Assembly: GCA_965249595.1 (NCBI GenBank)
Contig: OZ252242.1
Span: 1,718,158 to 1,782,157 of the forward strand
DNA from: Chloroflexota bacterium
GTDB lineage: Bacteria; Chloroflexota; UBA11872; VXNJ01
Direction: 5' to 3'
DNA length: 64,000 bases
The notes beneath the pieces were generated by a model. It was not told the DNA's origin. It saw only the letters and a program-made list of their open reading frames with translations, and ran no database searches. The translations under genes and the position numbers were made by a program. Each line of letters opens with the position of its first letter. Position 1 is the first letter of the stretch. Below, piece after piece: positions 21,619-32,960 of this stretch.

Positions 21619-23022
21619 TTAAAGCGGTGGTCGCTGCCAGCCGCCCAGCGATTCCTCAATGCATTGTGCCAAGGCCAGCGCAATGTCTTCACGCCAAGGC
21701 TTGGCAACGACCTGCACGCCGATAGGCAAACCGGCGCCTGAGGTTCCGGCACGGACAACCGCCCCCGGCCAACCGGTCATGTTGTGGATCATCGCGTACA
21801 TGGACCCATCTTTGTACCTGGGGGTGTTGGATTGACCATGGGATATCGCTGCATGGGCGTGGGCCGGGCAAAGAATCGCGTCGTAACCCGATAGAAACGA
21901 GAGCATCTGCCGTCGGAATTCATCGACCCAGACCAGGATTTCAGCCAGTTCGGTCACTGACGGCCGGTGTTCGCGTTGAAATTCAATCGCCTGTTGCATG
22001 AGTTTGTGACGCCTACTGGTCCCGGCCCGGGCCAGGATGCGGCTCAATTGATCGCCACCCACTCCGGCATTGAAAGCGTGGAACTGGCTCCTGATTGATT
22101 CCAAGCAAAGGGGTCGATCCTCCACCACCGTGACCCCGGCATCAGTGAGCGCCGCCGCCGCGTTTCGGATTGCTTCGGCAGTCTTCGGTGTGACAGGAAC
22201 TTCTGGTATGTCCGTATGGAATGCAACTCTGAGCCCCGCCGGATCTACGTCTCTGGGATTGCGCAACGCGACCGGAGCCACAGTTGGATCTGCGCCATCT
22301 GGTCCGGCAAGTATCGGGAGAGCAAGGGCCAGATCTTTCACATATCGTGCCAATGGGCCCAATTGCCAGAGCTGCGAGAGGCCGCCGGCGAAAGCGGGGT
22401 AGTGTCCCGTGCCGGGAACGCGTCCGGAAGTTGGCTTGATGCCGGCAATACCGCAGAAATGAGCCGGTCCGCGAATGCTCCCGCCCACATCGCTGCCTAC
22501 GCCCAGCGGCGATTGCCCTGACGATATTGCGGCGCCTTCGCCGCCACTACTTCCACCAGGGTGGCGAGAAGGGTCGTAGGGGTTGTTGGTTCGGCCGTAA
22601 ACGAGATTGTCAGTTTCACCGGCAGCGGAAAGTTCTGGCAAGTTCGACTTGCCGATCACGATCGCCCCGGCGCGCTTGAGCCTGGCCACTACGGTGGCAT
22701 CCTTGACCGGAACATATTCGGCGCGCCCCAGGGTTCCGCCGGTTGTCGTCACGCCCGCCGTTTCAACAGCATCTTTTATCGTGATCGGAACCCCATGCAG
22801 CGGTCCGACTAAGGTGCCGCGGGATAACTCTCTATCCAATTGCCGGGCTCGGGCTAAGGCAGAGTCCGCCAGCACGATTACGACCGCGTTGAGGATTGGA
22901 GTCACCGCTTCGATGCGATCCAAGTGGGCTTGGACCACTTCGACTGACGAAACCTGCCGGTCCCGGATCATGCCAGCCAGAGAGGACGCGGATCTGAATA
23001 TCAACTCATCCATGGCGCACAA
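21619..23022 (-). CDS. Amidase (amidase-signature family)
   Basis: GGSSGGEGAAISSGQSPLGVGSDVGGSIRGPA amidase signature with the Ser-cisSer-Lys elements. Confidence 0.85.
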   Translation of the reverse strand: MCAMDELIFRSASSLAGMIRDRQVSSVEVVQAHLDRIEAVTPILNAVVIVLADSALARARQLDRELSRGTLVGPLHGVPITIKDAVETAGVTTTGGTLGRAEYVPVKDATVVARLKRAGAIVIGKSNLPELSAAGETDNLVYGRTNNPYDPSRHPGGSSGGEGAAISSGQSPLGVGSDVGGSIRGPAHFCGIAGIKPTSGRVPGTGHYPAFAGGLSQLWQLGPLARYVKDLALALPILAGPDGADPTVAPVALRNPRDVDPAGLRVAFHTDIPEVPVTPKTAEAIRNAAAALTDAGVTVVEDRPLCLESIRSQFHAFNAGVGGDQLSRILARAGTSRRHKLMQQAIEFQREHRPSVTELAEILVWVDEFRRQMLSFLSGYDAILCPAHAHAAISHGQSNTPRYKDGSMYAMIHNMTGWPGAVVRAGTSGAGLPIGVQVVAKPWREDIALALAQCIEESLGGWQRPPL

Positions 23023-23515
23023 CCCTTTAATGACGGCGGTGATTTATTACCGTCGCAACGACTCTTCCCGATAGGCGGCCGAACCCTGTCGTATTCTGAC
23101 CCGCACCTTCGCCGTCGCAGTCGATGGCCTTTAGAGATCATCATGGTTATCTTGTATCTTGGAGGCGTGGTCAAATGGCTGTTTCCATCCGCTAACCTGA
23201 CAGCTTCGACCGTAGGCATCATGCCGCGTTCAATCGCTAGCCCTTGCTGATACAGCTTCTTAGAGAAATAAATTGATATCGACTGTACTGGCCGGACTCC
23301 ACCGTGAGATTTACAGCTGTGCGTGACGGAGGTACCGCACGCGTCGCCGGCAAAGTTGATTGGAGTCAAGATCAGCACACGAAAAATCGGATTGCCCAGA
23401 TTCAAAAGGTTCTACTTGGCCAAGAACGAGATTGAAGCCGTGTTTGAATTACTGAAATACACTACCTATTTATACTTACAATTACGTAATGTCAGTGAGT
23501 GATAATCCGACGTGA

Positions 23516-23794
23516 GAATGGAACGGAAGCAAGGATGAGGCGAATTACCGTGCACACGGCTTTCGATTCCAATTGGCCGCACTCGTATTCGATGACCCAC
23601 TCGCCGCGACAGTGGAGGACCCCAATTCGCTCGAAACGCGTTGGCGCACGATGGGCGTTGTAGCGGGAGTGGTGTTGATGGTCGTCCACACGTGGCCCGA
23701 ATACGATTCCTTGATCGGAACCGATGTCGGGCGCATCAGCAGCGCTCGAAAAGCGACCCGGAGAGAAAGGGCCGAATATGAAGCTGGTTCCTAA
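23516..23794 (+). pseudogene. brnT: BrnT-like (DUF497, COG2929) type II toxin gene lacking a canonical start
   Basis: In-frame translation EWNGSKDEANYRAHGFRFQLAALVFDDPLA...VVLMVVHTWPEYDSLIGTDVGRISSARKATRRERAEYE matches the DUF497 consensus (EWD..K...N..KHG.SF.EA..VFDDP...HT...RIISARKAT..ER..YE). A TGA at 23513-15 directly precedes the homologous region, and the first in-frame start is TTG at 23573. Confidence 0.6.
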
Positions 23795-24128
23795 AAAGCG
23801 ATCTGCCGAGCAAGCGCCGGATATTACAGAAATTGCCAAGTTGCCTGATGACCAAATCGACACGTCGGATATCCCCGAAGTGCTTGATTGGTCTGATGCC
23901 AGGCGTGGCGTCTTTTATCGACCAATCAAAAAACAAGTAACTATTCGAATAGATGCCGATGTAATCGATTGGTTCAAGAAACAAACACAAGGTCGCCGCG
24001 GATATCAAACCGACATGAATCGAGCCCTGCGAGAACATGCTTTGCGGGGCCAATCGGGAGCCAGTTTGGCGGAATCTGTCCAAAGCAAATCCGACTCTAA
24101 CTCCCTCGGGAAACCGGGCAATAGATAA
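23778..24128 (+). CDS. brnA: BrnA-like (COG3514) antitoxin
   Basis: MKLVPKK...DTSDIPEVLDWSDARRGVFYRPIKKQVTIRIDADVIDWFKKQTQGRRGYQTDMNRALREH matches the BrnA pattern. Overlaps the brnT 3-prime end by 17 nt; AAGGG SD upstream. Confidence 0.7.
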   Translation: MKLVPKKRSAEQAPDITEIAKLPDDQIDTSDIPEVLDWSDARRGVFYRPIKKQVTIRIDADVIDWFKKQTQGRRGYQTDMNRALREHALRGQSGASLAESVQSKSDSNSLGKPGNR

Positions 24129-24316
24129 GGTCTGGGTCTCGCGCCATTGCCCATTAAATGGCGGGAATACCGGGTCTTTTTTTCCGATGTGTACCCGTCA
24201 CGCCTTAAAAGAACGATCACTCATCTGGGTGTGAAATCGGGGGAAATGTTCGTGACCGCAACAACGAGTTCAACATGGTAGTTGCTGTCGTGTTGAACTG
24301 ACAAATTTTTCGTACG

Positions 24317-26056
24317 ATGCCCCGGATCGGGGTCGGGCCAGATACGGTCCCAAAATCTCGCGCGAAGGCCATGCAACTAAATGCAATTAACACCTTCTCC
24401 GATTGCTTGTCAATAATTGTTCGGGCGTGTCACGAAACAGGCGCCATTCTTACGAAACATCGGATGAGAAATTCGGCGTCGGAAGAACATCACAGGAAAT
24501 TCAATGACGCAGTTGGGGCGATTACAAAGCACCACGAACTGCATCGAATCGCCGGTGCGCACGTAGTCGACCACCGCCGGCTGACTACCGACCAATTGCG
24601 TGAGGGGCTACTGAAGGTAAGGCCGCAATACCTCCACCAGGAAACCGTTTGTTCGAATTTCGAACAAGCGTTGTTTAAAGAAGAAAGTACCCAGCTACGA
24701 GTGCTTTCGCGGTTGATCCTCGTCGATGTGCTGTTAAATCAATTCGGATTCGAATTGCCGTTTGATGAGACCGAGGAAATGGTCATTGCATTTGAGCAAA
24801 CGGTCGTGGACCGATCCAATGAGATTGAGCTTCAAGATCTGGGGTGCGCCAGCAACACGTCGACACGATTCAAAAACCTAAAACTATACGAGTTCGTGTT
24901 GGAAGTGGCATGGCAAAACAACGACGATAAGTCGCCCGATGAAGTCAATTTGTTAAGAATGCTCCGCGAACGGTTAGGTATTTCGGAATCTGACAATCGC
25001 CTGATGGAAGCGAAGCTTGGTAAATATCCAAAGCTGGACAACGGGCTCCACGTGCGAGACGAGATCGATGAAGCGCGTAAGTCCCTGCAGGGACTTGGTT
25101 TGCTGTTTGCAATTCGCCGAGAAGACGGTGCCGACGTAGATCTGGTCCCCGCAGAGGTGGCCGAACTGATCAGAAATGTGGTTGGCACCCAAATGCGGGA
25201 TGAAGCCTACCGCATGATGATTCGTGAGCGGCCGGTTCGAAAAAAGGCGCACTTGACCAGCGTATTGGAAAAGAACGGCGTTGAGTACGGCAGATATGAC
25301 ACTTTGGAGACGCTGACAGACCTAGTCGTCAGCTATGTTCCACCGACCAACGCCATTAGCAGCAATTCACCACGGTACGGGCTGGCCAATAAAGAACTTG
25401 CGGCGTGGTGCCGAAATCTCGGCGATTCCAGCTCTGGGACTACCGACGAGATGGTGGACCGAATAATTCGCCATTTTGATCGGCGACGACCGGTTGTTGA
25501 ACACCTCGATGACGAAAGGGCAACGTGGTACGAATACTTCGAAGAGCTAGCAACCCGATATTACGATTTGCTCCGGTCTCAGGATGTCATTGCCAAAGAC
25601 TTGGAAATTGAGTCAAAGTTTGAAGAAGCAACCAACTACCTTTTTTCGGAAAAGCTGAAGCACACGCCGCTCAAGCAGCCCGGTTCAAACCACCCGGACG
25701 GGCTGCTTAGCCTGGGTTCCTACTACCTAATGTGGGACAACAAATCGAAAGAATCACCCGTTAGTCTTCGCGACCACGTAAAGCAATTCGACGGTTATAT
25801 GGAGGCAGCTGAGAAATCAGTCCCAATTTTCTTGGTTATCGGCCCCGCGTTTTCCGACGAGTCGGAGATTGAAGCAATTCGGTACCGGGCCGAGCACTTT
25901 GATCGCGCGATTACATTGATTACGGCCGCCGAACTTAGAGATTTGGCCGAGGAGTGGGCGAGCCCTGAGAACAAGCGTCGCGAAGAGCCGTTTCCTCTTG
26001 GGCTTTTGGGTGTCAACGGTCGATATTCGCGGAGCCAGTTGGGGAAAATTTCATAA
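24317..26056 (+). CDS. Hypothetical 579-aa protein: SAP/HeH-like DNA-binding helices plus C-terminal PD-(D/E)xK-like nuclease motif
   Basis: AT-richer codon usage than neighbours. HeH/SAP-like segments SPDEVNLLRMLRERLGISESDNRLMEAKL and KELAAWCRNLGDSSSGTTDEMVDRIIRHF. C-terminal FEEATNYLFSE...HPDGLLSLGSYYLMWDNKSK has E..PD..(13 residues)..D-N-K spacing. Alternative ATG at 24371. Confidence 0.6.
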   Translation: MPRIGVGPDTVPKSRAKAMQLNAINTFSDCLSIIVRACHETGAILTKHRMRNSASEEHHRKFNDAVGAITKHHELHRIAGAHVVDHRRLTTDQLREGLLKVRPQYLHQETVCSNFEQALFKEESTQLRVLSRLILVDVLLNQFGFELPFDETEEMVIAFEQTVVDRSNEIELQDLGCASNTSTRFKNLKLYEFVLEVAWQNNDDKSPDEVNLLRMLRERLGISESDNRLMEAKLGKYPKLDNGLHVRDEIDEARKSLQGLGLLFAIRREDGADVDLVPAEVAELIRNVVGTQMRDEAYRMMIRERPVRKKAHLTSVLEKNGVEYGRYDTLETLTDLVVSYVPPTNAISSNSPRYGLANKELAAWCRNLGDSSSGTTDEMVDRIIRHFDRRRPVVEHLDDERATWYEYFEELATRYYDLLRSQDVIAKDLEIESKFEEATNYLFSEKLKHTPLKQPGSNHPDGLLSLGSYYLMWDNKSKESPVSLRDHVKQFDGYMEAAEKSVPIFLVIGPAFSDESEIEAIRYRAEHFDRAITLITAAELRDLAEEWASPENKRREEPFPLGLLGVNGRYSRSQLGKIS

Positions 26057-26210
26057 CCCTGGTCGGCACTAGCGATAAACACCTTTATGGCTAGTGGTCG
26101 ATTTGCATCGATTCAGCTGTTGGCTGACAGATATTTCAAATTCAACGTCGATCAAGCCGGACCTGCGCAGCAGATGACCAACCGCCGGTGCATTAGGCAG
26201 TCCCAGCCCG

Positions 26211-31099: not shown

Positions 31100-32600
31100 G
31101 TTGTAAGGGGGGGACTCTCTACCATTTGTCAAGCCGCTGCGGCATCACTCCGGAGCAGTTCTGGCTGATAAAGGGTCTGGTTACGCAGCATAGCGCAGAC
31201 CACCGCCAACAAACGGTCAGCTACCGATCGCAACGCCCTTGCATGCCGATGGCCTCGAAGGCGTAATGCGTCGTATTTGCGTCGGCTGACCGGATCATGC
31301 TGAACCGCCACCCGGGCCCAGTGGTACATGGCATTGGCGAGTCGACGATGGACGGCATGGCGTCGGACAACGATCATGCTCTTGCCCGATCGCTTGGTTA
31401 TCGGCGCAACTCCGCATAATGAGCGCAGGGCGCGATAGTCTCTCCGCATAAGAGGATCATGCGCCTCGGTGAGCAGTGTGGCGAGGACCGTCCTTCCGAC
31501 TCCGGGAAGAGATGAGAGGATGGCCACGTCGCGCTGCCCGCTCTCACCCAGTGCATCGTTGGCGATGGCATCGGTTAAGCGGTCGATCTGGGTGTTGACC
31601 TCGAGCAGTTGACGCTGGATGAGCTTTAGACGTTCGGCGACCAGGGTGATCGTCGCGACGGCAGCCTCGGTTGTGCCCGGAGACACCTTTATCGCTTCCT
31701 GGCGCAGCATCGAGAGCACGCCTGTCGCATCAATGCGACGGATGCGATGGCGTTTTAGCAACTGGGTTACCCGGCCTCGACTCAATCGCCGCCCCCTCTC
31801 CGGTGTGGGAGCCATCTGCCACAGATCCAGGATCCATGGCTCGGTGACGTTGTTGCTGATCTCCAGGACCTGCGGATAGTAGCGCCAGAGTTGTTGTCGC
31901 ACCCGGTTGCTAAGGCGGGTGCGCTCCTTGGTGAGCTCCTGAAGCCAAACGTGAGAACTCTCTTAGCTCCACGGTCAAGGGATCTGGCGATGCCAGCTGC
32001 CGCAGCACCTGCGGATCGGTGCGCAGGGCATCGGCCAGGACCCTGGCATCGCGGCGGTCGTCCTTGGCGCCGGCTGGGAAGAAGCGATCACGGAAGCGAT
32101 CGAGTTGCTTGGGGTTGATGGCATGCACTTTAAACCCGCGATCGAGCAGGCTCTCGACCACCGGTCCATGCGGCACCTCAATGGCGATGGCGATATCTTC
32201 GGGGTCGGTTCCGGTGCGGGACAGGATCCAGGCGGCCATGGCCGCCAATCCGGATCCACGATGCGGGAAATTACGCTGACCATGTTCGTTGCCGTCAGCG
32301 TCGATGATGCAGACCTGGTGCTCGGCGATGGCCCTTCTCGATCCGGCGTACCAGGAAGTGTGTTCTTTCACGGTCCTTCCCCATGTGTGGTGCGCGATGG
32401 TATTGATCGCATTGAAGGTCCGCCACGACACCTGCCAATCCCTGTACCGGCGTTCTAAGACGCAAACTCTCCACGGGGCATCTGCCGCGGCCAGCTGCAC
32501 CGGGGCACGGGTCCCCCCCACGGTGCTCAAAAGACACAAGGGGCGATTGGTTACTCCCGGCCGCTGACCTTGACGTCATCCAGGCTGAGCAGAGCATCGC
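31100..32600 (-). mobile_element. IS110-family insertion sequence (boundaries approximate)
   Basis: Contains the IS110 transposase coding region, N-domain and C-domain in collinear order; IS110 elements lack terminal inverted repeats, so ends cannot be fixed by eye. Confidence 0.65.
31129..32539 (-). pseudogene. IS110-family transposase, split by a frameshift between 31913 and 31962
   Basis: ORF 31910-32539 is the DEDD N-domain (VCIIDADGNEHG..., IAIAIEVPHGP...AINPKQLDRFRDRF). ORF 31129-31902 is the C-domain (LQELTKERTRLSNRVRQQLWRYYPQVLE..., LPGVGRTVLATLL..., GVAPITKRSGKS). End coordinates differ by 1 mod 3. Confidence 0.7.
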
Positions 32601-32960
32601 GCATGCCCAATTGCTTAGTCAGATGAAGCTACCTAAAGGTACAGGGGCTTTGATTTTGCCCGGAGATCGCCGCTTTTATACTCATGGCCCACGATACCGA
32701 ATTCCCCGGGCGGCTGCCGCCTGGGGCCGCGTCGCATCGCTGATTGAGACCTGCAAGATGAACGGCGTCGAGCCCTACGCCTGGTTCAAGAGCACGCTGG
32801 AGAAGATCGCCACCGGCCACCCGCAATCGAAGATCCACGAGCTGCTGCCCTGGAACTTCGGGCCCGCGACCGACGCCGACTGACGACGGCGCTCAATCCG
32901 CCCTTCGATAAATCCCCATAGTCAACCCGGATCCCGATATGGGGTCAGGCCACCGCTTAC
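32600..32960 (+). mobile_element. IS66-family 3-prime fragment (transposase C-terminus plus terminal inverted-repeat end)
   Basis: WGRVASLIETCKMNGVEPYAWFKSTLEKIATGHPQSKIHELLPWNF matches the IS66 TnpC C-terminus. About 70 nt downstream, ccaccgcttac is the complement of the canonical IS66 terminal GTAAGCG... Confidence 0.6.

What the first reader, a model, noticed from the sequence alone, without database searches (positions are those of the whole stretch)
23513..24128. BrnT/BrnA toxin-antitoxin pair in which the toxin has lost its start codon
The antitoxin (BrnA, COG3514) is intact, with an SD and the typical 17-nt overlap with the toxin stop. The toxin-homologous region begins immediately after an in-frame TGA (23513-15). 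The only ATG (23518) is in the wrong frame and terminates after 6 codons. The first in-frame start is TTG at 23573, which would remove about 20 N-terminal residues that include the conserved EWD..K..N..KHG segment. This looks like an attenuated or inactivated toxin with a retained antitoxin. Such orphan antitoxins are thought to provide anti-addiction immunity.
Basis: partly seen in the sequence, partly recalled or inferred. Interest (0 to 1): 0.5.

Follow-up and report, generated by a model that had tools for sequence, protein, structure and literature searches.

The report
BrnT toxin gene killed by nonsense mutation
This is an ordinary two-gene toxin-antitoxin module in which one base change (TGG to TGA at codon 9) has recently cut short the toxin gene in this strain while the antitoxin gene is still whole, a common way for such modules to decay.

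Summary
A BrnT/BrnA module is present, and the toxin reading frame is broken at TGA 23513-15. An in-frame ATG at 23489 lies eight codons upstream of the TGA. The peptide MSVSDNPT encoded there is identical to the N-terminus of intact 101-aa orthologues. In three related contigs the same codon is TGG: two strains about 99% identical to the window and one sister lineage about 89-94% identical. Trp occupies this column in 119 of 120 homologues. The lesion is therefore a single G>A nonsense mutation (W9*) with no indel. It is specific to this strain and recent. A further strain carries an independent +1 insertion that stops brnT at codon 15. brnA is intact in all five genomes. Two missense changes, D12N (the equivalent of RNase-critical Asp6 in Brucella BrnT) and I84S (Ser is never seen at this position), are shared with the intact strains and so predate the stop. 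TGA is a normal stop codon here, and no recoding signal was found. Toxin-first erosion of chromosomal TA modules is well documented. The anti-addiction idea is untested, and the recency of the mutation is enough to explain why brnA is retained. A single-base assembly error cannot be excluded. Interest is low.

The parts
23489..23794 (+). brnT pseudogene (W9* allele): an ancestral 101-codon ORF running from ATG 23489 to TAA 23792-94
   Evidence: Translation gives MSVSDNPT*EWNGSKDEANYRAHGF.... Pfam PF04365 scores 68.2 bits. The sequence is 92% identical to the intact 101-aa P0001. It is identical to the intact BrnT of strains L162 and L164 except for the stop.
23513..23515 (+). Premature TGA stop at codon 9, ancestrally TGG (Trp9). 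The G>A change is at 23515.
   Evidence: L001, L162, L163 and L164 all have TGG here. The column is Trp in 119 of 120 homologues. With L001 as outgroup, the change is derived in the window lineage.
23489..23491 (+).
   Evidence: It is in frame with the toxin and conserved in all four related loci. Gene callers used it for the intact 101-aa products.
23573..23575 (+). TTG, the first in-frame start after the stop. Any product would be 73 aa and would begin inside helix alpha2.
   Evidence: ORF list. The AF2 model of the orthologue has beta1 at 8-11, alpha1 at 13-23 and alpha2 at 27-35. The product would lack W9, W11, D12, K15, N19, H23 and F27, which are columns at least 90% conserved. These include the equivalents of Asp6 and Lys9 of B. 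abortus BrnT.
23522..23524 (+). AAC (Asn12), where the sister lineage and 108 of 120 homologues have Asp. The change is shared with the intact strains and so is older than the stop.
   Evidence: The position maps to Asp6 of B. abortus BrnT in the profile alignment to 3U97. Asp6 is listed among the residues important for RNase activity (PMC5086665).
23738..23740 (+). AGC (Ser84), where 117 of 120 homologues have Ile and none has Ser. The change is shared with the intact strains.
   Evidence: The residue lies in the long beta-strand 78-88 of the model.
23778..24128 (+). brnA antitoxin gene, an intact 116-codon ORF
   Evidence: Pfam PF14384 scores 55.6 bits. It is 99% identical to P0121 of strain L162, with a single M16I difference. 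All 15 invariant columns of a 101-sequence alignment are kept.
23778..23794 (+). 17-nt overlap between the 3' end of brnT and the start of brnA
   Evidence: Read directly from the sequence. The same overlap occurs in L001 and L162. It is the modal value in the survey.
24127..24184 (+). Terminator-like hairpin followed by a T7 run just after the brnA stop, which probably marks the end of the operon
   Evidence: Fold of -23.6 kcal/mol, z -2.0. The consensus terminator scan did not call it.

Best explanation
The locus is a chromosomal type II BrnT/BrnA module: a ribonuclease toxin gene first, then an overlapping antitoxin gene. It sits in a small low-GC islet. In this strain a single G>A transition at 23515 changed Trp9 (TGG) of brnT to TGA. 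Translation from the conserved ATG 23489 therefore ends after eight residues and no functional toxin is made.

The only in-frame restart is TTG 23573. Its product would lack strand beta1, helix alpha1 and part of alpha2, which carry several catalytic and conserved residues, so it is expected to be inert (inferred). brnA keeps its own SD-like site and an intact, conserved ORF.

The event is recent and strain-specific. It fits the usual toxin-first erosion of chromosomal TA modules. It may be a late step, after older missense changes (D12N, I84S) that may already have weakened the toxin (inferred). The retained antitoxin needs no special explanation, because it has had almost no time to decay.
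For: - Family assignment: Pfam matches for both genes. The closest solved homologue by sequence is the toxin 7vd7 at 1.8e-19.
- Ancestral gene structure: an in-frame ATG plus MSVSDNPT lies upstream of the TGA. The orthologue P0001 is MSVSDNPTWEWD..., 101 aa.
- Synteny: the loci L001, L162, L163 and L164 share the gene order amidase, brnT, brnA, 520-aa ORF, YhfX-like.
- The lesion: ungapped DNA alignments show TGG in every relative against TGA in the window. The column is Trp in 119 of 120 homologues.
- Relatedness: the window is 99.07% identical to L162 over 17.3 kb.
- Evidence of real divergence rather than error noise: of 63 window-derived substitutions over 12.5 kb, 30 are synonymous, 22 nonsynonymous and 11 intergenic. 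The window's two indels relative to L162 are both intergenic.
- Independent second lesion: strain L163 has a +1 T insertion giving MSVSDNPTWEWNGS*. brnA is intact in all five genomes.
- Timing: toxin dN/dS against L001 is 0.15, so the gene was under constraint until recently.
- Genetic code: TGA ends 13 of 34 long ORFs in the window.
- Literature: toxin pseudogenisation preceding antitoxin loss is frequent (PMC13617665; PMC2654758).
Against: - Reads cannot be inspected, so a single-base consensus error at 23515 cannot be excluded. The window lineage also carries more derived changes than L162 (63 against 27).
- UGA is a leaky stop that Trp-tRNA decodes. This is about 2-4% in an E. coli K-12 reporter (PMC10570021). 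Some full-length, native-sequence BrnT could still be made, so 'null' is not shown.
- Nothing about expression, toxicity or BrnA function was tested.
- Two disabling hits among four strains is not significantly more than neutral expectation (expected 0.39, P = 0.06). No claim of selection for toxin loss can be made.
Confidence: 0.8

Rival explanations
1. Assembly or consensus error. The real genome has TGG at 23513-15 and brnT is intact, as in strains L162 and L164.
For: Only one base differs. The related public contigs are metagenome assemblies with coverage tags in their names (6x to 36x). The window appears to come from the same kind of data: P0365 is 100% identical to the window's protein and lies on a 2.1-Mb NCBI/ENA contig. 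The window branch carries 2.3 times more derived changes than L162.
Against: Window-derived differences are enriched for synonymous sites (30 synonymous, 22 nonsynonymous; among G>A and C>T changes, 15 synonymous and 6 nonsynonymous). There are no coding indels. Random errors would be about 75% nonsynonymous. The G>A sites share no sequence motif. An independent disruption of the same gene exists in another strain.
Confidence: 0.12
2. Leaky-stop hypomorph. UGA9 is read through by Trp-tRNA at a low rate, which recreates exactly the native protein. The allele would then be a down-tuned toxin whose output might depend on stress, not a dead one.
For: The ancestral residue is Trp, the amino acid inserted at UGA by near-cognate tRNA-Trp. 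Readthrough of 2-4% has been measured in E. coli, rising with chloramphenicol (PMC10570021). A stable hairpin starts 6 nt after the stop (-19.2 kcal/mol, z -3.0). The rest of the ORF is undamaged.
Against: The mutation is too recent for an undamaged ORF to mean anything. The hairpin sequence is also present in strains with TGG, so it did not evolve for readthrough. It is not a general feature of 136 homologues (median z about 0). The base after the stop is G, and whether that favours readthrough was not tested. There is no Rfam hit. A second strain simply frameshifts the gene, which fits plain decay.
Confidence: 0.07
3. The start codon was lost, possibly through a 1-nt indel in an ancestral ATG-GAA-TGG, and a TTG-initiated N-terminally truncated toxin is made.
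For: TTG 23573 is the first in-frame start after the stop, and its product still matches Pfam BrnT at 46 bits.
Against: ATG 23489 is in frame and conserved. There is no indel relative to four related loci. The ancestral N-terminus is MSVSDNPTWEW. No homologue starts at the TTG-equivalent position. The truncated product would lack beta1, alpha1 and half of alpha2, including the Asp6 and Lys9 equivalents.
Confidence: 0.01
4. Programmed recoding. The TGA encodes selenocysteine, or the organism reads TGA as Trp.
For: An in-frame TGA sits at a conserved Trp position and a hairpin lies downstream.
Against: TGA terminates 13 of 34 long ORFs in the window. Closely related strains use TGG at this site. 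Cys occupies this column in only 1 of 120 homologues. No Rfam family, SECIS included, matches. No tRNA gene lies in the window.
Confidence: 0.005

Closest known systems
[quoted passage not shown] 2012, as summarised in PMC5086665)
   Same: The gene order is toxin first, with an overlapping antitoxin. Both Pfam families match above threshold. A profile alignment to 3U97 maps K15, R51 and E93 onto Lys9, Arg41 and Glu78. The predicted fold has an N-terminal strand, two helices and an antiparallel sheet.
   Different: The toxin ORF is cut at codon 9. The Asp6 equivalent is Asn and the Glu7 equivalent is Gly. The N-terminus is 6 residues longer than in most homologues. BrnA carries a C-terminal tail of about 20 residues that most homologues lack. 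Sequence similarity to the Brucella protein is remote (E 0.003, and only with a profile).
Toxin-first erosion of chromosomal TA modules (ccdO157 decay in E. coli, Mine et al. 2009, cited in PMC2654758; Photorhabdus survey, PMC13617665)
   Same: The toxin is disabled by a point mutation or a small indel while the antitoxin ORF stays intact. Lesions are independent in closely related genomes. The module lies in a small variable islet.
   Different: This is a different TA family and an uncultured lineage. There is no experimental validation, and only five genomes were available.
Anti-addiction modules (chromosomal ccd of Erwinia chrysanthemi acting against F-plasmid ccd; Saavedra De Bast et al. 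2008, cited in PMC2654758)
   Same: A chromosomal antitoxin that could in principle neutralise an incoming homologous toxin.
   Different: No cognate plasmid or phage BrnT was identified. No second BrnT or BrnA lies in the 64-kb window. Nothing indicates selection on the orphan brnA.

Membership tests
BrnT toxin (PF04365 / DUF497) | Sequence match to the family profile above the curated threshold | tested here: met
   68.2 bits against a cut-off of 34.5, E 8e-19, covering the full profile 1-77. There are 315 homologues, the best at 92% identity.
BrnT toxin (PF04365 / DUF497) | Uninterrupted ORF of about 95-101 codons starting 2-8 residues before the W-x-W-D motif | tested here: not met
   TGA at codon 9. 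The locus is therefore filed as a pseudogene of a family member, not as a functional member.
BrnT toxin (PF04365 / DUF497) | Residues reported as important for RNase activity in B. abortus BrnT (Asp6, Glu7, Lys9, Arg41, Glu78) | tested here: inconclusive
   K15, R51 and E93 are present. The Asp6 equivalent is Asn, which 7 of 120 homologues also have. The Glu7 equivalent is Gly and is not conserved in this clade.
BrnT toxin (PF04365 / DUF497) | Ribonuclease activity and growth inhibition that the partner neutralises | not testable with these tools
   Requires a kill/rescue assay and an RNase assay.
BrnA antitoxin (PF14384 / DUF4415) | Profile match above threshold, an intact ORF and the conserved columns retained | tested here: met
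   55.6 bits against a cut-off of 26.1. The ORF is 116 codons. All 15 invariant columns of a 101-sequence alignment are present.
BrnA antitoxin (PF14384 / DUF4415) | Gene immediately downstream of brnT and overlapping it | tested here: met
   17-nt overlap, which is the modal value in related loci.
Anti-addiction / orphan-antitoxin immunity | Antitoxin expressed without its toxin, and neutralising a homologous toxin carried by a mobile element | not testable with these tools
   No second BrnT in the window. Expression and cross-neutralisation are unknown.
Selenocysteine or UGA=Trp recoding | A SECIS element with Cys or Sec homologues at the site, or genome-wide absence of TGA as a stop codon | tested here: not met
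   No Rfam hit. The column is Trp in 119 of 120 homologues and Cys in 1. TGA ends 13 of 34 long ORFs.

The most novel reading that the evidence does not exclude
The W9(UGA) allele is not dead but a translational-fidelity-gated hypomorph. Near-cognate Trp-tRNA readthrough would regenerate exactly the native BrnT at about a percent of normal output, and more when readthrough rises under stress. The toxin:antitoxin ratio would then be set by stop-codon leakiness instead of by antitoxin proteolysis.
Probability: 0.05. Interest if true: 0.5.

Novelty: already known. Interest (0 to 1): 0.15.

Why it matters
The main value is for annotation. The locus should be labelled a brnT pseudogene (nonsense at codon 9) next to an intact brnA. 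It should not be labelled a start-less toxin or a 73-aa toxin starting at TTG.

Taken with the four related genomes, it also gives a small, clean picture of TA erosion within one species: older missense changes at a catalytic position and at a nearly invariant Ile, then independent early-ORF knock-outs in two of four strains, with the antitoxin untouched. This agrees with the published toxin-first decay model and does not extend it.

Tried and rejected
- Closer relatives: scans of GTDB genome contigs and JGI metagenome contigs with the toxin found only homologues at 62% identity or less. The informative relatives came from the BrnA and neighbour-gene protein searches plus contig look-ups.
- The window's own BrnA is not in the protein collection. 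The contig that seems to hold the window (via P0365) could not be retrieved.
- NCBIfam and PADLOC gave no hits for either TA protein.
- No inverted or direct repeats (candidate operators) were reported upstream of brnT. No sigma-70-like promoter was called.
- The hairpin after the stop was tested as a general feature of brnT 5' regions and rejected. The median z is about 0 in 136 homologues, although 10% have z below -2 against 2% of control segments.
- The Heaton et al. 2012 paper (PMC3320955) is not held. Residue roles are taken from the review PMC5086665.
- My first impression was that W9*, D12N and I84S were all window-specific hits at conserved sites, which would have suggested selection for inactivation. 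I dropped this once L162 showed that D12N and I84S also occur in strains with an intact ORF.
- Enrichment of disabling hits is not significant (P about 0.06).

Full report
**What is in the sequence**

The + strand of 23489-24128 holds two overlapping reading frames. The downstream one (ATG 23778 to TAA 24126-28, 116 codons) matches Pfam BrnA_antitoxin (55.6 bits, cut-off 26.1). The upstream frame matches BrnT_toxin over the whole profile (68.2 bits, cut-off 34.5).

The toxin frame contains TGA at 23513-15.
- ATG 23518 is out of frame and gives MERKQG*.
- TTG 23573 is the first in-frame start after the TGA.
- brnA overlaps the toxin stop (TAA 23792-94) by 17 nt.
- A purine-rich SD-like tract (23760-23771) precedes brnA.

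In a crude survey of homologous loci, 17 nt was the commonest overlap (26 of 81 scorable loci).

Translating upstream of the TGA in the same frame gives ATG 23489, then MSVSDNPT, then TGA, then EWNGSKDEANYRAHGF.... The best database homologue, P0001 (101 aa, 92% identity), reads MSVSDNPTWEWDGSKDEANYRAHGF.... Homology therefore does not begin after the TGA. It runs through it, and the TGA occupies a Trp position.

In an alignment of 120 homologues this column is Trp in 119. Most homologues start only two residues before it (MRWTWD...). None starts at the equivalent of the TTG.

**Related genomes**

Contig look-ups recovered four syntenic loci with the order amidase, brnT, brnA, 520-aa ORF, YhfX-like racemase:

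| Locus | Identity to the window | brnT | brnA |
|---|---|---|---|
| L001 | about 89-94% | intact (TGG) | intact |
| L162 | 99.07% over 17.3 kb | intact (TGG) | intact |
| L163 | 98.6% | +1 T insertion after codon 14 | intact |
| L164 | 98.7% | intact (TGG) | intact |

Ungapped DNA alignments show TGG at the window's TGA in all four, and no indel near 23516-23521. The lesion is therefore a single G>A transition at 23515 (W9*), derived in the window lineage.

The proposed 1-nt indel restoring 'ATG-GAA-TGG' is not supported. 'Lost start codon' is the wrong description, because ATG 23489 is conserved everywhere.

**Real mutation or error?**

Reads are not available. Indirect evidence favours a real difference:
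- Using L001 as outgroup over 12.5 kb, the window carries 63 derived substitutions: 30 synonymous, 22 nonsynonymous and 11 intergenic.
- Its two indels relative to L162 are both intergenic.
- This spectrum is typical of strain divergence under purifying selection, not of random consensus errors.
- No motif is shared among the G>A sites.

The window seems to come from a 2.1-Mb NCBI/ENA contig, because P0365 is 100% identical to the neighbouring protein. That contig could not be fetched. I give about 0.12 to a single-base error.

**Context within the species**

Strain L163 carries an independent lesion, a +1 T insertion after codon 14 that gives MSVSDNPTWEWNGS*. Its only other indel relative to L162 is partly supported by the window sequence, so L163 is not obviously error-ridden, although its coverage tag is 6x. 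L162 and L164 have identical intact brnT genes. brnA is intact in all five genomes. The window's brnA differs from that of the other three strains only by M16I.

Two disabling hits among four strains is not significantly above a neutral expectation computed from the regional rates (expected 0.39, P(>=2) = 0.06). This fits relaxed selection on the toxin and does not demonstrate selection for its loss.

**Older changes**

Relative to L001 and to the family as a whole, all four strains share two substitutions:
- D12N. The column is Asp in 108 of 120 homologues and Asn in 7.
- I84S. The column is Ile in 117 of 120 homologues and Ser in none.

A profile alignment to B. abortus BrnT (3U97) maps W11 to Trp5, D12 to Asp6, K15 to Lys9, R51 to Arg41 and E93 to Glu78. 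A review of the Heaton et al. work lists Asp6, Glu7, Lys9, Arg41 and Glu78 as important for RNase activity (PMC5086665).

The toxin of this species may therefore already have been weakened before the stop arose. This is an inference. Overall dN/dS against L001 is 0.15 (13 synonymous and 7 nonsynonymous changes), so the gene was constrained for most of that time.

**Consequences (inferred)**

Translation from ATG 23489 ends after eight residues. The AF2 model of the orthologue (pLDDT 91.6) places beta1 at 8-11, alpha1 at 13-23, alpha2 at 27-35 and a long strand at 78-88.

A TTG-initiated product would begin inside alpha2. It would lack seven columns that are at least 90% conserved, including the Asp6 and Lys9 equivalents, so it is unlikely to fold or to be toxic.

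brnA has its own SD-like site. However, loss of upstream translation could reduce its expression through lost translational coupling or through polarity. This was not testable. A hairpin followed by a T7 run after brnA (24127-24184, -23.6 kcal/mol) looks like the operon terminator.

**Recoding rivals**

- TGA ends 13 of 34 long ORFs in the window.
- There is no tRNA gene in the window and no Rfam match in 23000-24400.
- Sister strains use TGG at this site.
- A hairpin starts 6 nt after the stop (-19.2 kcal/mol, z -3.0). Strains with TGG have the same hairpin sequence, and it is not a general feature of 136 homologous 5' regions.

Passive UGA leakiness by Trp-tRNA is well documented in E. coli, at about 2-4% in a reporter (PMC10570021). 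It would recreate the native residue, so a trace of full-length protein cannot be excluded. I treat a functional 'hypomorph' as a low-probability novel reading.

**The anti-addiction idea**

No second BrnT or BrnA homologue exists in the window, and no mobile-element toxin was identified. The stop is private to one strain. Over that short branch (about 0.5% derived changes) a 351-nt gene is expected to collect only one or two substitutions even if it evolves neutrally, and one was observed. Retention of brnA therefore carries no information about selection.

Toxin-first pseudogenisation is the commonly reported route of chromosomal TA decay. In the Photorhabdus survey there were 185 toxin-only pseudogenised copies against 8 antitoxin-only copies (PMC13617665). 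The ccdO157 decay is cited in PMC2654758.

**Verdict**

The locus is a recent W9* nonsense pseudogene of brnT beside an intact brnA. This kind of event is already known, and its interest is low.

Noticed in passing
window 24317-26056 (+); the likely true start is 24494, giving 520 aa: The gene next to brnA belongs to a widespread, strongly conserved family of about 520 aa, annotated only as 'hypothetical' (209 homologues at 51-82% identity, from several phyla). It has an invariant PDG...WDNKS motif (PD-(D/E)XK-like), sub-threshold Pfam matches to the FokI cleavage domain, and a SAP domain. The AF2 model has pLDDT 86.5. Its best PDB fold matches are FokI (E 1e-5), Nt.BspD6I and EcoT38I. No methyltransferase gene is adjacent in the window. 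Neighbours in other genomes vary: a 968-aa N6_Mtase-like gene, HicAB, or AAA_15+DUF4276. In strain L164 the gene is split by a +1 C insertion. It is a possible solitary type IIS-like nuclease or defence gene.
   Followed up: partly
window about 23000-26100: A low-GC islet (about 47-53% GC against 56-63% in the flanks) holds exactly brnT*, brnA and the FokI-like gene, between an amidase gene and a YhfX-like racemase gene. The islet is shared with the sister lineage L001, so it was acquired before that split.
   Followed up: partly
window 31113-32643: An IS110-family insertion that is absent from strain L162. Its transposase is split into two ORFs in different frames (31910-32539, DEDD_Tnp_IS110; 31129-31902, Transposase_20). 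This is either a frameshifted, inactive copy or an assembly indel.
   Followed up: no
window 23482-23491: A window-specific G>A at 23484, 5 nt before the brnT ATG, turns ATTGCGTAAT into a perfect 10-bp palindrome, ATTACGTAAT, that overlaps the start codon. Its significance is unknown. It might affect an operator or the translation initiation region.
   Followed up: no
window 23519-23571: A stable hairpin lies inside the brnT coding region just after the premature stop (-19.2 kcal/mol, z -3.0). The D12N change (G>A at 23522) converts a G-U pair into an A-U pair in this stem. Among 136 homologues, 10% of the equivalent segments have z below -2, against 2% of control segments, but the median is about 0.
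   Followed up: partly
window 24096-24125 (BrnA residues 107-116) and the intergenic region 24129-24190: The C-terminal tail of BrnA, absent from most homologues, differs from L001 at 9 of 30 nt, by my count from the alignment. This is about the same rate as the flanking intergenic DNA and well above the gene's average. The tail appears to be unconstrained.
   Followed up: no
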